A stretch of 64,000 nt of DNA from Escherichia coli (GCF_044324875.1 NZ_CP172185.1), one strand, 5' to 3'. Numbered from the stretch's first letter, positions 27,452 through 30,908 are shown. Numbers and translations are program-made. The notes: a model not told the origin generated them from the letters alone.

Positions 27452-27475
27452 AGGAAAACCCGCGAGTGCGGGCGA
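27452..27475 (-). terminator. Rho-independent terminator downstream of the dosCP-derived gene
   Basis: Minus-strand hairpin CCCGCACTCGCGGG followed by TTTTCC, about 12 nt past the stop codon. Confidence 0.6.
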
Positions 27476-27485
27476 GAGGAATTTG

Positions 27486-30400
27486 TCAGATTTTCAGCGG
27501 TAACACACTGCTCATCCAGCCTGGAATTTCTTCGGCGGGCAGGGGGCGGGAAAAGAAATATCCCTGAATAACGCGACAGTGGATCTTGCGTAGCATCTCA
27601 AATTGCTCTTTGGTTTCGACGCCTTCCGCCACGACGGTTAAATTAAGGCTTTGCCCAATGCTGGTAATGGCTTCAAGTAAGGCAAGGATGCGTTTTTCGG
27701 TCAGACAACGATCGACAAAACTTTTGTCAATTTTGATTTCCGTTACCGGAAGACTGACTAAGCGGGATAATCCGGAAAAGCCCGTGCCAAAATCATCTAC
27801 CGATAAACCCACGCCCATATCGCGCAGGATCTGAATGCGCTTAAAGATTTCGGTATCGTGTTCCATCATCATGCTTTCCGTGATTTCCACCGTCAGCTGG
27901 TGGCCGTCAATACCCCAGGCGTGCATTGCATCAGACACCTGATTAGGCAGTTGATTACTGCGAAAGTGCAGCGCCGACAAGTTAACGGATAACGCCGGGA
28001 TATGAATATTCTGGCTACGCCATTCTGCTAACTGACGGCAAGCTTCCGCGATGACCCAGCGCCCAATATTTTCGATTTCACCGATCTCTTCTGCGAGAGG
28101 AATAAACCGTGAAGGGGGCACATGACCATGCAGGGGATCGTGCCAGCGAGCAAGGGCTTCGATGCCGTACAGTTCACCCGTTTCTGCGAAGATTTGCGGC
28201 TGGTAAACCAGTTTCAGTTGGTTATTGCTAATTGCTTCTTTCAGCGCCGCGCCTAAAACCAAACGCTCTTTTACCATTTCGTTCATCGCCGGGCTGAAGA
28301 ACTGCCAGCCGTTACCGCCATTTTTGCGAATAAAATCCATTGCATTGTGAGCAGTGGAGAGCAGGTAATCGCGGTTTTTACCCACGTCGTAGCTGATGCC
28401 AATGCTCAAGGTGAGCGGGAATGGCTTATCGTCAATCATTATCGGCTTGCTGACCACATTCCGTAGCTCATCGGCGATTTGCGTAATGTTACTGACGTCG
28501 TTTTCCAGGCTCACGAGGACAAACTGCGTACCTTCGATACGACAGAGATATTGATCCGGTTTGAGTTTTTCACGAAAGCGATTGACCACTTCCAGCAATG
28601 CCTGATCGGCCCACGCATAGCCAAGGCTATCAATCACATCCTGAATATGGTCAACACTGATGAGATAGACCACCGGAGAGACGGCTTTGTCGACCAGGTC
28701 ATCGAGGTAATTGTGCAGGTTATTGCGATTTGGCAGACCGGTCATCGGATCAAATTGGATGAGTTGTTCAATATGCTGACGGCTTTTTTCCTGTTCCAGC
28801 GCCAGCGCGGCCATATGCTGGCTGATATCTGCCACGCGTTCGATAAAGGCGCTGGTTTCTGCTCCTGACGAGGTTTTAATTTGCAGGATCCCCGCAGGCG
28901 CACCATCACGCTGACGAATGGTCGCTGACCAGCTTTGCGCATTTTGAACTTCTGCACCGTGCGAAGATGACGCCCAGTGTATCGGCATCCCGTTGCGCAG
29001 CGCGAACAGCGAAACATGCGATTCGTTGAGTACAGATTCGATGTTACGACAAATGATTTCCCCCATTTCATGAAATGGCGGGCTGCTGCACATGGCGGCG
29101 AGAATATTGCCTTCAAGCTGGCGGATTTGCCGTTCTTCGGTGATATCCGAGAAGGTCATTACCAGGTTCTGCAGATGCGCGAGCACGTCATAAACCGGGC
29201 TGATAGAGGCTTTAATCCAGATTTTTTCACCGGTGCGCGTCAATAGCAGAAATTCGTCCTGATCGCGGGCGGTTTTCCAAAGCAACTGTTGTAAACGAAT
29301 GCGGTTATCGGCAGGGAATTCAGGAATGTTCAGGAGTGAATCGGGCTGCATACCGCTGGCTTCGCTAATGCAGTAACCAAACATTTCGGTAAATGCGCGA
29401 TTGCACTGCACAATATGGCGTTCCGGATCGAGGACAATCACCGGTCGGTCGAGATGGTCAACGGCAATAATCAATTGTCGGGTCTGTTCTTTTTGCGCCA
29501 TTTCTACGCTGGCATCCCGTACCAGCGCCAGGTAATAAATTTTACCCTCGGCGCTCACTTTCGATAGCGCAAAACGGGTCCAGATTTTACTGCCGTCTTT
29601 TTTCTCCAGCTGCAGCTCCCGACTCATCCCCTCGACGCGCGCTTTACCGCCTTCACGGTTGTGACGGATGTATTCAGGATGCGCGGGACGCAAATCCCGT
29701 GGAATCAGCATATCAATGTTATTGCCAATGACTTCTTCACGTTTGTACCCCCAGAGCTTCTCTGCGGCGGGGTTGAAAAACATCACTTCATCATTTTCGT
29801 TAATTAACACCGCGCCCATCATATGGCCCACTTCGGCTATGCCGCTAAAATAATGTCGACCTTTATGGTTAAACCACAGGCCAAAATCAGCCTGGCTTAA
29901 AGGCAAACTACTGCCTAAATCAGAATCCAGCAGGACTTTATAGATAATATCTATTTCCCATGAAAGTAATGAGGCTATTTGCCGTTCTTTTTCTTCTTCG
30001 GCATTTTCCAGTAACGAGAAGATACGATAGTTTTCATCTTCCTTTGAGGCACTACTGTCACTAAAGGTAAACGCGCGGGTCATCACTTCCATAGCGATAT
30101 CAATACTGTTAATAGAGAAATGGTAGACCTGAAGTTTTTCTGCGGCGGAATAATCCGAAGAGAAGATGACTGGATAGAGGATTTTTTTCAGCACCCGAAA
30201 CCCCATCTCGACAATTTCTACCGGAATTCCTATGCGGGCATGCACTTCCGCGACGGTATGCTGGATTTGTATTAGCCTTTCGACATCGTCAACCTGGGCA
30301 GAAAGCACGTTAATAATCCAGCGTTCCATCGCACTTTTCAACTGCCGCTCAACTTGTTCATTACTCAAGAATTCTTCGGCATGCGGGTCGATACGGACAA

Positions 30401-30533
30401 TTCGGTAAAACTCAATACTCAGATAATGGGCATGCGCAACGGCAATTTCCGCGGCTTTAGCACGAATGAGCGGATCTGCTTGTTCGACAAGCCCGGTCCA
30501 CTCATCTTTCATTCTTTTAAAATACATCTCCAT
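27486..30533 (-). CDS. dosP: In-frame fusion: DosC globin-sensor N-terminus (about 237 aa) joined to DosP (PAS-PAS-degenerate GGDEF-EAL phosphodiesterase) from about its residue 22
   Basis: Single uninterrupted 1015-codon ORF; N-terminus MEMYFKRMKDEWTGLVEQADPLIRAKAAEIAVAHAHYLSIEFY is the DosC globin domain; from ...GIAEVGH|MMGAVLINENDEVMFFNPAAEKLWGYKREEV the sequence is DosP through its C-terminus; no RYGGDEF motif (DosC cyclase) anywhere in the window. Confidence 0.85.
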   Translation of the reverse strand: MEMYFKRMKDEWTGLVEQADPLIRAKAAEIAVAHAHYLSIEFYRIVRIDPHAEEFLSNEQVERQLKSAMERWIINVLSAQVDDVERLIQIQHTVAEVHARIGIPVEIVEMGFRVLKKILYPVIFSSDYSAAEKLQVYHFSINSIDIAMEVMTRAFTFSDSSASKEDENYRIFSLLENAEEEKERQIASLLSWEIDIIYKVLLDSDLGSSLPLSQADFGLWFNHKGRHYFSGIAEVGHMMGAVLINENDEVMFFNPAAEKLWGYKREEVIGNNIDMLIPRDLRPAHPEYIRHNREGGKARVEGMSRELQLEKKDGSKIWTRFALSKVSAEGKIYYLALVRDASVEMAQKEQTRQLIIAVDHLDRPVIVLDPERHIVQCNRAFTEMFGYCISEASGMQPDSLLNIPEFPADNRIRLQQLLWKTARDQDEFLLLTRTGEKIWIKASISPVYDVLAHLQNLVMTFSDITEERQIRQLEGNILAAMCSSPPFHEMGEIICRNIESVLNESHVSLFALRNGMPIHWASSSHGAEVQNAQSWSATIRQRDGAPAGILQIKTSSGAETSAFIERVADISQHMAALALEQEKSRQHIEQLIQFDPMTGLPNRNNLHNYLDDLVDKAVSPVVYLISVDHIQDVIDSLGYAWADQALLEVVNRFREKLKPDQYLCRIEGTQFVLVSLENDVSNITQIADELRNVVSKPIMIDDKPFPLTLSIGISYDVGKNRDYLLSTAHNAMDFIRKNGGNGWQFFSPAMNEMVKERLVLGAALKEAISNNQLKLVYQPQIFAETGELYGIEALARWHDPLHGHVPPSRFIPLAEEIGEIENIGRWVIAEACRQLAEWRSQNIHIPALSVNLSALHFRSNQLPNQVSDAMHAWGIDGHQLTVEITESMMMEHDTEIFKRIQILRDMGVGLSVDDFGTGFSGLSRLVSLPVTEIKIDKSFVDRCLTEKRILALLEAITSIGQSLNLTVVAEGVETKEQFEMLRKIHCRVIQGYFFSRPLPAEEIPGWMSSVLPLKI

Positions 30534-30908
30534 AATTCACACCCTTATAAGGCTGGGAAAGCAGACGGAATCAAAACGAAACGCAACGTGCGAGGTCGAC
30601 TAACTGCACCATATTCTCCTGAAATATGAAGATATACTGAAAACAAATAAGCGACTTAGGACAGTTTCAATCTACGCTACTGTTCTTCAGAAGAGTATAG
30701 CCCATCGTAATTATTTTTCGGTGACAGCGAATATCGTATGTTTTTTCATATTCATACATTTTTATTAGGGGATTTATGACTGTTTAACTAAGTGTGGTTA
30801 ATTGCGTAGTTAATTTGACTTAAGTAAGCATGATTACTAGTGGGATATTTCAAGAGGGTAACAAGCCGGGGGAAAAGCACCGGCTTGTTACAAAGTAAGA
30901 ATGGGAGT

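What the first reader, a model, noticed from the sequence alone, without database searches (positions are those of the whole stretch)
27486..30533. dosC and dosP are fused in frame into one gene, deleting the DosC diguanylate cyclase domain
In K-12 the dosCP operon encodes two proteins: DosC (globin-coupled diguanylate cyclase, ~460 aa) and DosP (haem-PAS c-di-GMP phosphodiesterase, ~799 aa). Here one 1015-codon ORF starts with the DosC globin-sensor sequence and switches at ...GIAEVGH|MMGAVLINE... (junction near 29820, DNA ggccatATGATGggcgcg) into DosP from about residue 22 to its C-terminus. 237 + 778 = 1015, so the deletion is in frame and removes the GGDEF domain, the dosC stop, the intergenic spacer and the first ~21 codons of dosP. 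The product would carry two different haem-based O2/NO sensor domains on one phosphodiesterase and no cognate cyclase, which should shift the local c-di-GMP balance. The short AT/ATAT identity at the junction is consistent with a microhomology-mediated deletion.
Basis: partly seen in the sequence, partly recalled or inferred. Interest (0 to 1): 0.65.

Follow-up and report, generated by a model that had tools for sequence, protein, structure and literature searches.

The report
Natural in-frame dosC–dosP gene fusion
A 759-base deletion in one rare E. coli lineage has joined the oxygen-sensing c-di-GMP cyclase gene dosC to its partner phosphodiesterase gene dosP, removing the cyclase; it is real, but it is one of many deletion alleles at a locus that E. 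coli often degrades.

Summary
The ORF at 27486..30533 (-) encodes 1015 aa, made of DosC residues 1-237 followed by DosP residues 22-799.

Compared with E. coli 042, about 9.4 kb around the locus is 100% identical except for one clean 759-bp (253-codon) deletion. Its endpoints share 4 bp of microhomology (ATAT). The deletion removes half of the DosC middle domain, the whole GGDEF cyclase domain, the dosC stop codon, the 24-nt spacer and dosP codons 1-21.

It is not a mis-assembly. The identical protein is on record under at least four NCBI accessions and on 24 contigs that were read, from NCBI and Logan assemblies. None of 5,426 complete E. coli genomes has the junction, so the clone is rare.

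Both haem pockets and the EAL catalytic module are intact, and so are the dosC promoter and ribosome-binding site. The break falls exactly at DosP Met30 (historical numbering), a residue shown to be essential for O2 activation. The leftover middle-domain segment models poorly.

The fusion is not unique. I found at least seven independent in-frame dosC-dosP junctions, one of them (923 aa) widespread, plus out-of-frame and B2-type dosC deletions.

The most likely effect is loss of the cyclase, with a phosphodiesterase that is still made but probably mis-regulated. Interest is modest.

The parts
27486..30533 (-). Chimeric dosC'-'dosP ORF, 1015 codons plus stop (DosC 1-237 followed by DosP 22-799)
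   Evidence: ORF list; alignment to 042 DosC and DosP; the exact protein is public as P0001; it passes the NCBIfam DosP equivalog NF008467 with 1601.8 bits against a cut-off of 857.
30534..30908 (-). digH-dosC intergenic region carrying the native dosCP promoter and the dosC ribosome-binding site, unchanged
   Evidence: All 375 nt are identical to E. coli 042. The consensus scan finds no strong sigma-70 site here. This fits the RpoS dependence reported in the literature, but the promoter was not mapped here.
30024..30533 (-). DosC globin (protoglobin) haem sensor domain, residues 1-170, intact
   Evidence: Pfam Protoglobin matches residues 27-155. PDB 4ZVA and 4ZVB (DosC globin) match residues 1-170. 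Y43, L65 and H98 are present. AF2 pLDDT is 75-94.
29823..30017 (-). Remnant of the DosC middle domain (residues 173-237, about half of the four-helix bundle, including the pi-helix residues H223/K224)
   Evidence: Pfam DosC_2nd matches only model positions 1-70 of 110. PDB 4ZVC matches chain positions 1-70 of 126. AF2 pLDDT is below 50 for residues 166-182 and 212-237. The four-helix-bundle description comes from PMC7033309.
29821..29824 (-). Deletion junction: the single retained copy of the ATAT microhomology (both endpoints in the ancestor carry ATAT)
   Evidence: Prefix and suffix identity to 042 overlap by 4 nt. No longer direct or inverted repeat brackets the endpoints. The chance of 4 bp or more is 1.8%.
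29466..29822 (-). DosP haem-binding PAS-A domain lacking its first 21 residues (fusion residues 238-356); the first residue is Met30 in historical numbering
   Evidence: PDB 1V9Y, 1S66 and 9CMF match from fusion residue 236/237 onward. M30, H77, M95, R97, R131 and E136 are present. The role of M30 comes from PMC11543664. AF2 pLDDT is 64-89.
29127..29462 (-). DosP PAS-B (PAS-PAC) domain
   Evidence: Pfam PAS_4, PAS and PAS_9 match residues 358-469.
28311..28754 (-). DosP degenerate GGDEF (EGTQF) domain, a silent cyclase fold and not a replacement for the DosC cyclase
   Evidence: Pfam GGDEF matches residues 594-741. The EGTQF motif is at residue 667. It is described as a 'silent diguanylate cyclase' in PMC11543664.
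27543..28247 (-). DosP EAL phosphodiesterase domain, intact
   Evidence: Pfam EAL matches residues 763-997 with E = 3.8e-69. PDB 4HU3 matches. The EAL motif is at 792 and DDFGTG at 913.
27458..27476 (-). Terminator-like GC-rich hairpin followed by a T run, just downstream of the stop codon
   Evidence: Terminator scan. The sequence is identical to the 042 dosP 3' region.

Best explanation
This is a real, lineage-restricted allele of the dosCP operon. Shown: a single 759-bp deletion between two ATAT tetranucleotides, of the kind produced by replication slippage or illegitimate recombination, joined dosC codon 237 in frame to dosP codon 22. The surrounding haplotype is otherwise identical to the E. 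coli 042 type. Shown: the allele lacks the DosC GGDEF domain and half of its middle domain, so the O2-sensing cyclase activity of this module is gone. The dosC promoter, ribosome-binding site and start codon are untouched, while dosP's own ribosome-binding site and start codon are deleted. The DosP moiety can therefore be made only as the C-terminal 778 residues of a 1015-aa chimera. Inferred: the chimera forms a parallel homodimer like DosP. The DosC globin would hang from the N-terminal tip through a poorly structured remnant of about 70 residues. The EAL domain would keep at least basal c-di-GMP phosphodiesterase activity. O2 control through the PAS haem is probably weakened or uncoupled, because the segment preceding Met30 at the PAS-PAS dimer interface has been replaced. 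The expected net effect in the cell is a dosC loss-of-function with the phosphodiesterase retained. That means lower local c-di-GMP in stationary phase, a state that E. coli reaches repeatedly by other dosC deletions.
For: Deletion anatomy: (0 mismatches in 9,401 nt outside the deletion; the upstream 375 nt are identical). Not an artefact: the exact protein is in the public collection under EHS0462121.1, EII4856014.1, EIQ9234190.1 and EIX4565056.1, on 31 contigs. It is indexed in 47 blocks, and 24 contigs from NCBI and Logan were read. L004 is 100% identical to the window over 15 kb, and L003 and L005 differ by 2-3 SNPs. A one-residue variant, P0002, also exists. Microhomology: 4 bp, with a chance of 1.8%, and no longer repeats at the endpoints. 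Domains and residues. The middle-domain remnant has low confidence while both haem domains fold. M30A abolishes O2 and CO activation of DosP (PMC11543664). N-terminal MBP and FLAG fusions of full-length DosP were purified, and the FLAG form was used for structures. EcDOS truncated of its haem domain kept activity toward cAMP (PMC4263535). Loss of dosC is common in nature: B2-type deletions in 1,048 of 5,426 complete genomes, truncated forms in Shigella, and literature reports (PMC5635171).
Against: There is no expression, stability, haem-binding or activity data for the chimera. AF2 used a shallow, artificially paired 26-row alignment and a monomer, so low confidence in residues 166-237 does not prove disorder. 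A half four-helix bundle could expose hydrophobic surface and lead to aggregation or proteolysis, which would make the allele a double null. The carrier lineage is so young (0-3 SNPs per 15 kb) that its conservation says nothing about selection. The rest of the source genome could not be inspected for a second dosC, although the locus is single-copy in nearly all genomes (median 1 place per genome).
Confidence: 0.7

Rival explanations
1. Double null: the chimera is misfolded or rapidly degraded, so the deletion inactivates both dosC and dosP. The ORF is an intact-looking pseudogene in a young clone.
For: Only about half of the DosC middle four-helix bundle remains, and it is modelled with pLDDT below 50. 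The DosP N-terminal segment next to Met30, which lies at the PAS dimer interface needed for the ON state, is replaced. The clone is too young for an ORF to have decayed. Elsewhere dosP is also found with stop codons or frameshifts (HH45; B-11870), so losing both genes is tolerated.
Against: Both flanking domains are complete, independently folding units with solved structures, and both model confidently. The DosP N-terminus lies at the distal tip of an elongated dimer, and large N-terminal fusions such as MBP were purified. The EAL, EGTQF and PAS-B regions are untouched.
Confidence: 0.22
2. Gain of function: the chimera is a working dual-haem sensor in which the DosC globin (higher O2 affinity) also gates or biases the DosP phosphodiesterase, or keeps DosC-type protein contacts. 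It would be retained because it rewires O2-to-c-di-GMP signalling.
For: Both haem pockets are intact. The conserved pi-helix His-Lys (H223/K224), implicated in globin-to-output signalling, is retained. The DgcO globin domain itself contacts the GGDEF and EAL domains of PdeR in two-hybrid assays (PMC5635695). A natural protoglobin-haem phosphodiesterase, Azorhizobium Chp1, is listed in a review. In-frame dosC-dosP fusions recur, and one is widespread.
Against: The junction results from an arbitrary 4-bp microhomology, not a domain boundary. It truncates the transmitting middle domain and the PAS N-cap. AF2 shows no defined connection between the domains. Out-of-frame boundary-spanning deletions and complete dosC losses are also common, so nothing indicates selection for fusion as such. 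The clone is rare: 0 of 5,426 complete genomes.
Confidence: 0.08
3. Assembly or sequencing artefact: an assembler collapsed the region, and the real genome has intact dosC and dosP.
For: Only the general possibility. No complete (long-read) genome in the 5,426-genome collection shows the junction.
Against: There is no repeat longer than 4 bp at the endpoints that could cause a collapse. The identical junction appears in at least 24 contigs from separate samples assembled by different pipelines (NCBI submissions, NCBI TPA, Logan). A single-residue variant of the same fusion also exists.
Confidence: 0.01
4. Internal translation restart at Met238/Met239 yields a free DosP lacking residues 1-21 alongside a 237-aa DosC fragment, so the fusion is effectively two proteins.
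For: Two consecutive ATG codons lie exactly at the junction. A weak purine-rich stretch (GAAGTGGG) lies upstream of them.
Against: No stop codon precedes these ATGs, so there is no termination-reinitiation. Predicted anti-Shine-Dalgarno pairing is weak: -4.8 kcal/mol, against -7.1 for the native dosP site (now deleted) and -6.0 for the dosC start.
Confidence: 0.04

Closest known systems
Wild-type dosCP (dgcO-pdeO) operon of E. coli K-12 / 042: DosC (460 aa, globin-middle-GGDEF cyclase) and DosP (799 aa, haem-PAS, PAS, EGTQF, EAL phosphodiesterase)
   Same: Same locus between digH and ddpX, and the same promoter region. The DNA is 100% identical to the 042 allele outside the deletion. The globin domain and DosP residues 22-799 are unchanged.
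   Different: There is one polypeptide instead of two. The GGDEF cyclase domain, half the middle domain, dosP's own ribosome-binding site and start, and DosP residues 1-21 are missing.
The 923-aa DosC-DosP fusion allele (P0018 family; for example strains ECONIH4/5, ABWA45, O15:H12 2273-PO3, MS 115-1)
   Same: It is also an in-frame deletion fusing dosC to dosP at a short microhomology (2 bp, 1035-bp deletion). NCBI gives it the same product name.
   Different: It keeps the complete DosC globin, middle and GGDEF domains (residues 1-436) and loses both DosP PAS domains, so it is potentially a globin-controlled cyclase-phosphodiesterase. It is far more common: 750 collection blocks and about 23 of 5,426 complete genomes. 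The window allele is the reverse type, with the cyclase lost and the PAS sensor kept.
Other in-frame dosC-dosP fusion alleles: 1054/1050 aa (P0003/P0004), 944 aa (P0007), 983 aa (P0011), 885 aa (P0059), 539 aa (P0122)
   Same: Each is an independent deletion across the dosC-dosP boundary with 0-8 bp of microhomology, and all are in frame. P0003 is the most similar: it breaks DosC at residue 247, ten residues from the window's break.
   Different: The junctions differ. P0003 keeps all of DosP, including its N-terminal segment. P0007 loses the haem-PAS domain. The others keep the cyclase. All are rarer than or comparable to the window allele (1-10 contigs).
B2-phylogroup dosC deletion (for example ATCC 11775) and truncated dosC in Shigella
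   Same: The outcome is the same for the cyclase: DosC is lost while dosP is kept. Literature notes that DosC is frequently absent in natural isolates.
   Different: In B2 strains two deletions remove the dosC 5' end and the promoter-proximal region, leaving a 165-bp 3' remnant. dosP keeps its own start and there is no fusion. These deletions are common: 1,048 of 5,426 genomes.
Natural globin-coupled c-di-GMP phosphodiesterases (for example Azorhizobium caulinodans Chp1, as listed in review PMC8846402)
   Same: The concept of a protoglobin haem sensor upstream of a phosphodiesterase output.
   Different: Those are evolved architectures with a complete linker. I did not compare sequences or architectures directly, so this is a lead from a review table and not a test. 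The window protein also carries a second, PAS-type haem domain.

Membership tests
DosP (oxygen-sensing c-di-GMP phosphodiesterase; NCBIfam equivalog NF008467) | Whole-protein score above the curated cut-off | tested here: met
   1601.8 bits against a cut-off of 857.
DosP (oxygen-sensing c-di-GMP phosphodiesterase; NCBIfam equivalog NF008467) | Haem-binding PAS-A with the proximal His77 and the Met95/Arg97 switch residues (historical numbering) | tested here: met
   H285, M303 and R305 of the fusion correspond to these residues. PDB 1V9Y and 1S66 match.
DosP (oxygen-sensing c-di-GMP phosphodiesterase; NCBIfam equivalog NF008467) | Complete N-terminus, meaning the segment preceding Met30 that belongs to the PAS-PAS dimer region | tested here: not met
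   Profile positions 1-20 are unmatched. DosP residues 1-21 are deleted.
DosP (oxygen-sensing c-di-GMP phosphodiesterase; NCBIfam equivalog NF008467) | PAS-B, degenerate GGDEF (EGTQF) and EAL catalytic domain present | tested here: met
   Pfam domains. EGTQF is at residue 667, EAL at 792 and DDFGTG at 913.
DosP (oxygen-sensing c-di-GMP phosphodiesterase; NCBIfam equivalog NF008467) | O2-stimulated hydrolysis of c-di-GMP to pGpG | not testable with these tools
   This needs purified protein. The M30A precedent suggests regulation may be impaired.
DosC / globin-coupled diguanylate cyclase | N-terminal sensor globin with the distal Tyr43 and proximal His98 | tested here: met
   Pfam Protoglobin matches residues 27-155. 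PDB 4ZVA and 4ZVB match. Y43, L65 and H98 are present.
DosC / globin-coupled diguanylate cyclase | Complete middle domain (four-helix bundle) | tested here: not met
   Only model positions 1-70 of 110 (Pfam) and 70 of 126 residues of 4ZVC are present. AF2 pLDDT is below 50.
DosC / globin-coupled diguanylate cyclase | Catalytic GGDEF domain | tested here: not met
   DosC residues 238-460 are deleted. No DosC GGDEF sequence occurs elsewhere in the window. The only GGDEF-fold domain is DosP's EGTQF. The protein is therefore not a diguanylate cyclase.
Microhomology-mediated (illegitimate) deletion | A short direct repeat at both ancestral endpoints, with one copy left at the junction, and no inserted or foreign sequence | tested here: met
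   ATAT is present at both endpoints in 042 and once in the window. Both flanks are 100% identical. The chance of 4 bp or more is 1.8%.
Microhomology-mediated (illegitimate) deletion | No long repeats, IS elements or recombinase sites that would point to another mechanism | tested here: met
   The repeat scan of the intact locus finds nothing bracketing the endpoints. There is no IS element at the junction.

The most novel reading that the evidence does not exclude
The chimera is a stable, working phosphodiesterase with two haem domains (globin and PAS). Its globin moiety changes the O2 range, or the partner contacts (PdeR, RNase E/PNPase), of the DosP output. On this reading, the repeated appearance of in-frame dosC-dosP fusions in E. 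coli (at least seven junctions, one in hundreds of assemblies) reflects selection to keep the phosphodiesterase translated, or to rewire O2-to-c-di-GMP signalling, whenever the operon suffers a boundary-spanning deletion.
Probability: 0.1. Interest if true: 0.6.

Novelty: new member of a known kind. Interest (0 to 1): 0.3.

Why it matters
DosC is reported as the most highly expressed diguanylate cyclase in stationary-phase E. coli, and DosP as the most abundant phosphodiesterase at that stage. Together they form an O2-tuned source-and-sink pair linked in the literature to PNPase and the degradosome, curli, PNAG and swarming.

An allele that removes the source but keeps the sink should lower local c-di-GMP in its carriers. 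It adds to the evidence that natural E. coli repeatedly dismantles this module.

For biochemists, the allele is a ready-made construct. It tests whether the DosP haem-PAS domain can signal without its N-terminal segment, and whether a globin can influence an EAL output.

The broader point is that the dosCP operon is a deletion hot spot that yields many chimeric proteins, all annotated simply as 'DosP'. This may be more useful than the single allele. Genome annotation and c-di-GMP gene censuses will miscount cyclases and phosphodiesterases at this locus if these chimeras are not recognised.

Tried and rejected
- **Mis-assembly.** Rejected. The endpoints share only 4 bp, and the same junction is present in many independent assemblies.
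- **A displaced dosC copy within the window.** blastn with the deleted 759 bp and tblastn with DosC 238-460 found only chance 12-18-nt matches and no protein hit.
- **Repeat- or hairpin-driven deletion.** A scan of the intact 042 locus with 6-nt seeds found no repeat pair bracketing the endpoints.
- **Internal translation restart at the junction ATGs.** Anti-Shine-Dalgarno pairing is weaker than at the native sites, and no stop codon lies upstream. Not supported.
- **Identifying the source lineage.** The two 24-kb flanks match the best complete genomes at only 99.3-99.6%, and different strains match on each side. The lineage is not among the 5,426 complete genomes, and I could not assign a sequence type or serotype.
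- **Literature on dosC-dosP fusions.** Three searches (the last was poorly targeted) found no description. The Povolotsky and Hengge 2016 census of GGDEF/EAL genes was not available, so I cannot exclude that some of these alleles are mentioned there.
- **The representative-library search** was dominated by multi-PAS proteins and gave few DosC relatives. MAFFT misplaced isolated PAS fragments onto the globin region, so I built pseudo-paired rows for the AF2 alignment.
- **Testing for an excess of in-frame boundary-spanning deletions.** I counted 7 in frame and 3 out of frame. The two hit lists are incomplete and unevenly ascertained (one search did not even return the query's own cluster), so no inference is drawn.
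Full report
**Observation.** The window has a 1015-codon ORF on the minus strand at 27486..30533. Its product begins with the DosC sequence and switches at ...GIAEVGH|MMGAVLINE... into DosP. The DNA at about 29820 reads ggccatATGATGggcgcg. Megablast against 5,426 complete E. coli genomes showed that the best matches (strain 042, Ecol_316, THO-008 and others) are 100% identical. They span 4,160 bp against 3,401 bp in the window, always as two aligned pieces. I fetched the 042 locus, which is annotated gadC-digH-dosC-dosP-ddpX-ddpA-ddpB. Base-by-base comparison gave 880 identical bases on the left and 2,525 on the right, with a 4-nt overlap (ATAT, window 29821-29824) and 759 bases missing. Over the full 10-kb locus there are no other differences, so 9,401 of 9,401 shared bases are identical. 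This includes all 375 nt between digH and the dosC start codon. In codon register the deletion removes dosC codons 238-460 plus the stop (672 nt), the 24-nt spacer and dosP codons 1-21 (63 nt). The product is therefore DosC 1-237 followed by DosP 22-799.

**Is it real?** The deleted 759 bp and any DosC-type GGDEF domain are absent from the rest of the window. The endpoints share only 4 bp, and no longer direct or inverted repeat brackets them in the intact locus, so an assembler had nothing to collapse. The exact 1015-aa protein is already in public collections under NCBI accessions EHS0462121.1, EII4856014.1, EIQ9234190.1 and EIX4565056.1, on 31 contigs, where it is named 'oxygen-sensing cyclic-di-GMP phosphodiesterase'. 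The gene index lists it in 47 blocks. Twenty-four contigs from separate NCBI and Logan samples were read, and all have the same neighbours. One of them, from GCA_040438525.1, is 100% identical to the window over 15 kb, and two others differ by 2-3 SNPs. A variant differing by one residue also exists. The allele is therefore carried by a real, closely related set of isolates. It is rare: no complete genome has the junction in one piece. The window's flanks are only 99.3-99.6% identical to the best complete genomes, so that collection does not represent the source lineage.

**Mechanism of origin.** One copy of ATAT remains where the ancestor had two copies 759 bp apart, and no foreign sequence lies at the junction. 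Random dosC x dosP endpoint pairs reach 4 bp or more of microhomology in 1.8% of 200,000 trials.

**What the protein contains.**
- Pfam finds Protoglobin (residues 27-155), DosC_2nd (180-251, but only model positions 1-70 of 110), two PAS domains (241-340 and 358-469), a GGDEF fold (594-741) and EAL (763-997).
- Solved structures match accordingly: the DosC globin (4ZVA, 4ZVB) over residues 1-170; the DosC middle domain (4ZVC) over only its first 70 of 126 residues; the DosP haem-PAS domain (1V9Y, 1S66) and full-length DosP cryo-EM models (9CMF, 9BGV and others) from residue 236/237 to the end.
- The haem and signalling residues are all present. In DosC these are Y43, L65, H98 and the pi-helix pair H223/K224. 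In DosP (historical numbering) they are M30, H77, M95, R97, R131 and E136. The EGTQF, EAL and DDFGTG motifs are also present.
- The only GGDEF-fold domain is DosP's silent EGTQF domain, so the protein cannot be a diguanylate cyclase.
- It passes NCBI's curated DosP equivalog model, with 1601.8 bits against a cut-off of 857, matching profile positions 21-800 of 800.

**Where the break falls.**
- *On the DosC side.* The middle domain is a four-helix bundle with a pi-helix. In related sensors it is required to position the globin relative to the output domain (PMC7033309). The break, 13 residues after the conserved His-Lys, leaves about half of the bundle.
- *On the DosP side.* The 2024 cryo-EM study uses a numbering with eight extra N-terminal residues, so its Met30 is UniProt Met22. 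This is exactly the first DosP residue after the junction, fusion residue 238. That study showed that Met30 of one monomer contacts beta-G and beta-H of the other in the O2-bound ON state. It also showed that M30A lowers O2 affinity and gives a weak phosphodiesterase that neither air nor CO can activate. Met30 itself is kept, but everything before it is replaced by DosC sequence.
- *Structure prediction.* I predicted residues 1-364 with AlphaFold2, using a 26-row alignment built from DosC-N and haem-PAS homologues. The rows were paired arbitrarily to force correct register. The globin (pLDDT 75-94) and the PAS domain (64-89) fold confidently. Residues 166-182 and 212-237 fall below 50, and the junction is modelled as coil. 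The alignment is shallow and the model is a monomer, so I read this only as 'two folded haem domains joined by a poorly defined tether of about 70 residues'.

**Expression signals.** The dosC promoter region, ribosome-binding site and start codon are unchanged, and a terminator-like hairpin follows the stop codon. The dosP ribosome-binding site and start codon are deleted. The two ATG codons at the junction have weaker predicted anti-Shine-Dalgarno pairing (-4.8 kcal/mol) than the native dosP site (-7.1) or the dosC start (-6.0), and no stop codon precedes them. The DosP moiety is therefore expected to be made only as part of the chimera.

**Most likely consequence.**
- *Shown.* The O2-sensing cyclase is gone, and the phosphodiesterase module is intact and translationally fused.
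- *Inferred.* The chimera dimerises like DosP, whose N-termini lie at the distal tip of an elongated dimer. N-terminal MBP and FLAG fusions of full-length DosP were handled successfully. The chimera probably retains basal EAL activity, since EcDOS truncated of its haem domain was active toward cAMP. O2 control is probably impaired because of the altered context of Met30.
- *Net effect.* A dosC loss-of-function with the sink retained. DosC (DgcO) is reported as the most highly expressed cyclase in stationary phase and as an interaction hub, so lower local c-di-GMP is a reasonable prediction. It is untested.
- *Main rival.* The half-bundle may destabilise the protein, which would give a double null. 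I rate this at about 0.2. A true dual-sensor gain of function is possible but unsupported, at about 0.1.

**Context: the fusion is not singular.** A search with the fusion protein returned several other proteins that start as DosC and end as DosP. Mapping them gave these independent in-frame junctions:
- DosC 1-247 joined to the region just upstream of DosP residue 1 (1054 and 1050 aa)
- DosC 1-279 | DosP 135-799 (944 aa)
- DosC 1-449 | DosP 266-799 (983 aa)
- DosC 1-436 | DosP 313-799 (923 aa)
- DosC 1-445 | DosP 358-799 (885 aa)
- DosC 1-279 | the DosP EAL region (539 aa)

For the five of these junctions that I examined at the DNA level (all except the 539-aa allele), microhomology ranges from 0 to 8 bp. 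The 923-aa allele keeps the whole cyclase and loses both PAS domains. It is widespread: 750 collection blocks, 30 of them with contigs over 1 Mb. Its junction is present in one piece in about 23 of 5,426 complete genomes of diverse strains, often with an IS element just upstream.

Out-of-frame boundary-spanning deletions also exist: P0129, P0272, and the 381-aa Shigella flexneri form with 419 member sequences. So do fusions of DosC to ddpX, ddpA or ddp ATPases, and many internal dosC deletions. B2-phylogroup strains such as ATCC 11775 carry two deletions that leave only a 165-bp dosC remnant upstream of an intact dosP. That pattern accounts for 1,048 of 5,426 complete genomes. Published surveys also note that DosC is frequently absent. 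The dosCP region is therefore a deletion hot spot, and loss of DosC is a recurrent natural outcome. The window allele is a new, rare member of that set. I counted 7 in-frame and 3 out-of-frame boundary-spanning junctions, but the hit lists are incomplete and unevenly ascertained, so I draw no conclusion about selection for in-frame events.

**Comparison with known systems and novelty.** The protein is a member of the DosP family by the curated model, except for its missing N-terminal segment. It fails two defining features of globin-coupled cyclases, namely a complete middle domain and a GGDEF catalytic domain. Natural globin-coupled phosphodiesterases are listed in a review (Azorhizobium Chp1), but I did not compare them directly. 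I found no paper describing dosC-dosP fusions. The most relevant census paper was not available. I classify the finding as a new member of a known kind: a deletion or fusion allele of a frequently degraded operon. The recurrent family of chimeras, especially the common 923-aa form, is the more noteworthy by-product.

Noticed in passing
L007-L012 (gene at 3001-5772 in each locus); junction probe L007:4229-4389: A different in-frame dosC-dosP fusion of 923 aa (DosC 1-436 | DosP 313-799, 1035-bp deletion, 2-bp microhomology). It keeps the globin, middle and GGDEF domains and loses both PAS domains. It is widespread: 750 collection blocks, and about 23 of 5,426 complete genomes, including ECONIH4/5, ABWA45, O15:H12 2273-PO3, O125ac:H10 and MS 115-1. 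RefSeq annotates it as dosC plus dosP. It could be a globin-controlled bifunctional enzyme.
   Followed up: partly
L013 (983 aa), L014 (944 aa), L015 (1054 aa), L016 (885 aa); proteins P0003, P0004, P0007, P0011, P0059, P0122: At least five further independent in-frame dosC-dosP fusion junctions. For the four examined at DNA level (L013-L016), microhomology is 0-8 bp and the deletions are 642-1149 bp. Each is seen in 1-10 contigs.
   Followed up: partly
L002 (ATCC 11775) 2989-3199; L006 (HH45) 2986-3421: B2-type strains carry two separate deletions in dosC. These leave a 47-bp island (dosC codons ~214-229) and the last 165 bp upstream of an intact dosP. HH45 shares the first deletion but has a different second one, and also has a dosP internal stop and a frameshifted ddpX. 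The left edge of the retained island (042 locus ~3806-3809) is shared by both, which suggests a common first event. This pattern is present in 1,048 of 5,426 complete genomes.
   Followed up: partly
Proteins P0129, P0272, P0275 (Shigella flexneri, 419 member sequences), P0270 (Shigella sonnei, 881 members): Out-of-frame deletions from dosC into dosP, whose tails read an alternative dosP frame, and truncated DosC forms fixed in Shigella lineages. The cyclase-phosphodiesterase pair is degraded there too.
   Followed up: partly
Proteins P0123, P0124, P0125, P0169 (and P0049, P0055, P0057, P0073, P0052 by their Pfam content): Larger deletions fuse the DosC N-terminus in frame to DdpX, DdpA or ddp ABC-transporter ATPases. 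By their Pfam content, some DosP variants also appear fused to neighbouring genes (ddpX, ddpA, digH); I did not examine those sequences. The whole digH-dosCP-ddp segment looks deletion-prone.
   Followed up: no
Proteins P0005 (971 aa) and P0006 (920 aa): DosP variants with internal tandem duplications. P0005 has a segment of about 85 aa before the EGTQF domain repeated three times, and P0006 has part of the EAL domain repeated twice. They could be real duplications or assembly artefacts.
   Followed up: no
L007, L008 2170-2867; L009, L010, L012 ~1830-2811: IS1 or IS5-family transposase genes are inserted between digH and the start of the 923-aa fusion gene in several carriers. They lie in the promoter region of the operon and may change its expression.
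   Followed up: no
window 3000-27000 compared with 31000-55000: The two flanks of the locus have different closest relatives among complete genomes. The left flank is 99.0-99.3% identical to wastewater and porcine O139:H1/ETEC strains, with IS3-family elements and several aligned pieces. The right flank is 99.6% identical to the 042/THO-008 group. The dosCP segment itself is 100% identical to 042. This suggests a recombinant mosaic background.
   Followed up: no
Representative-library hits P0121, P0126-P0152 and others: Very long proteins (up to about 5,500 aa) consist of up to 13 or more tandem PAS repeats. The repeats closely resemble the DosP haem-PAS domain, including the conserved His and the 'G.SR' motif, and many of the shorter examples fetched carry MCP-like C-termini. 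They may be multi-haem sensor arrays.
   Followed up: no
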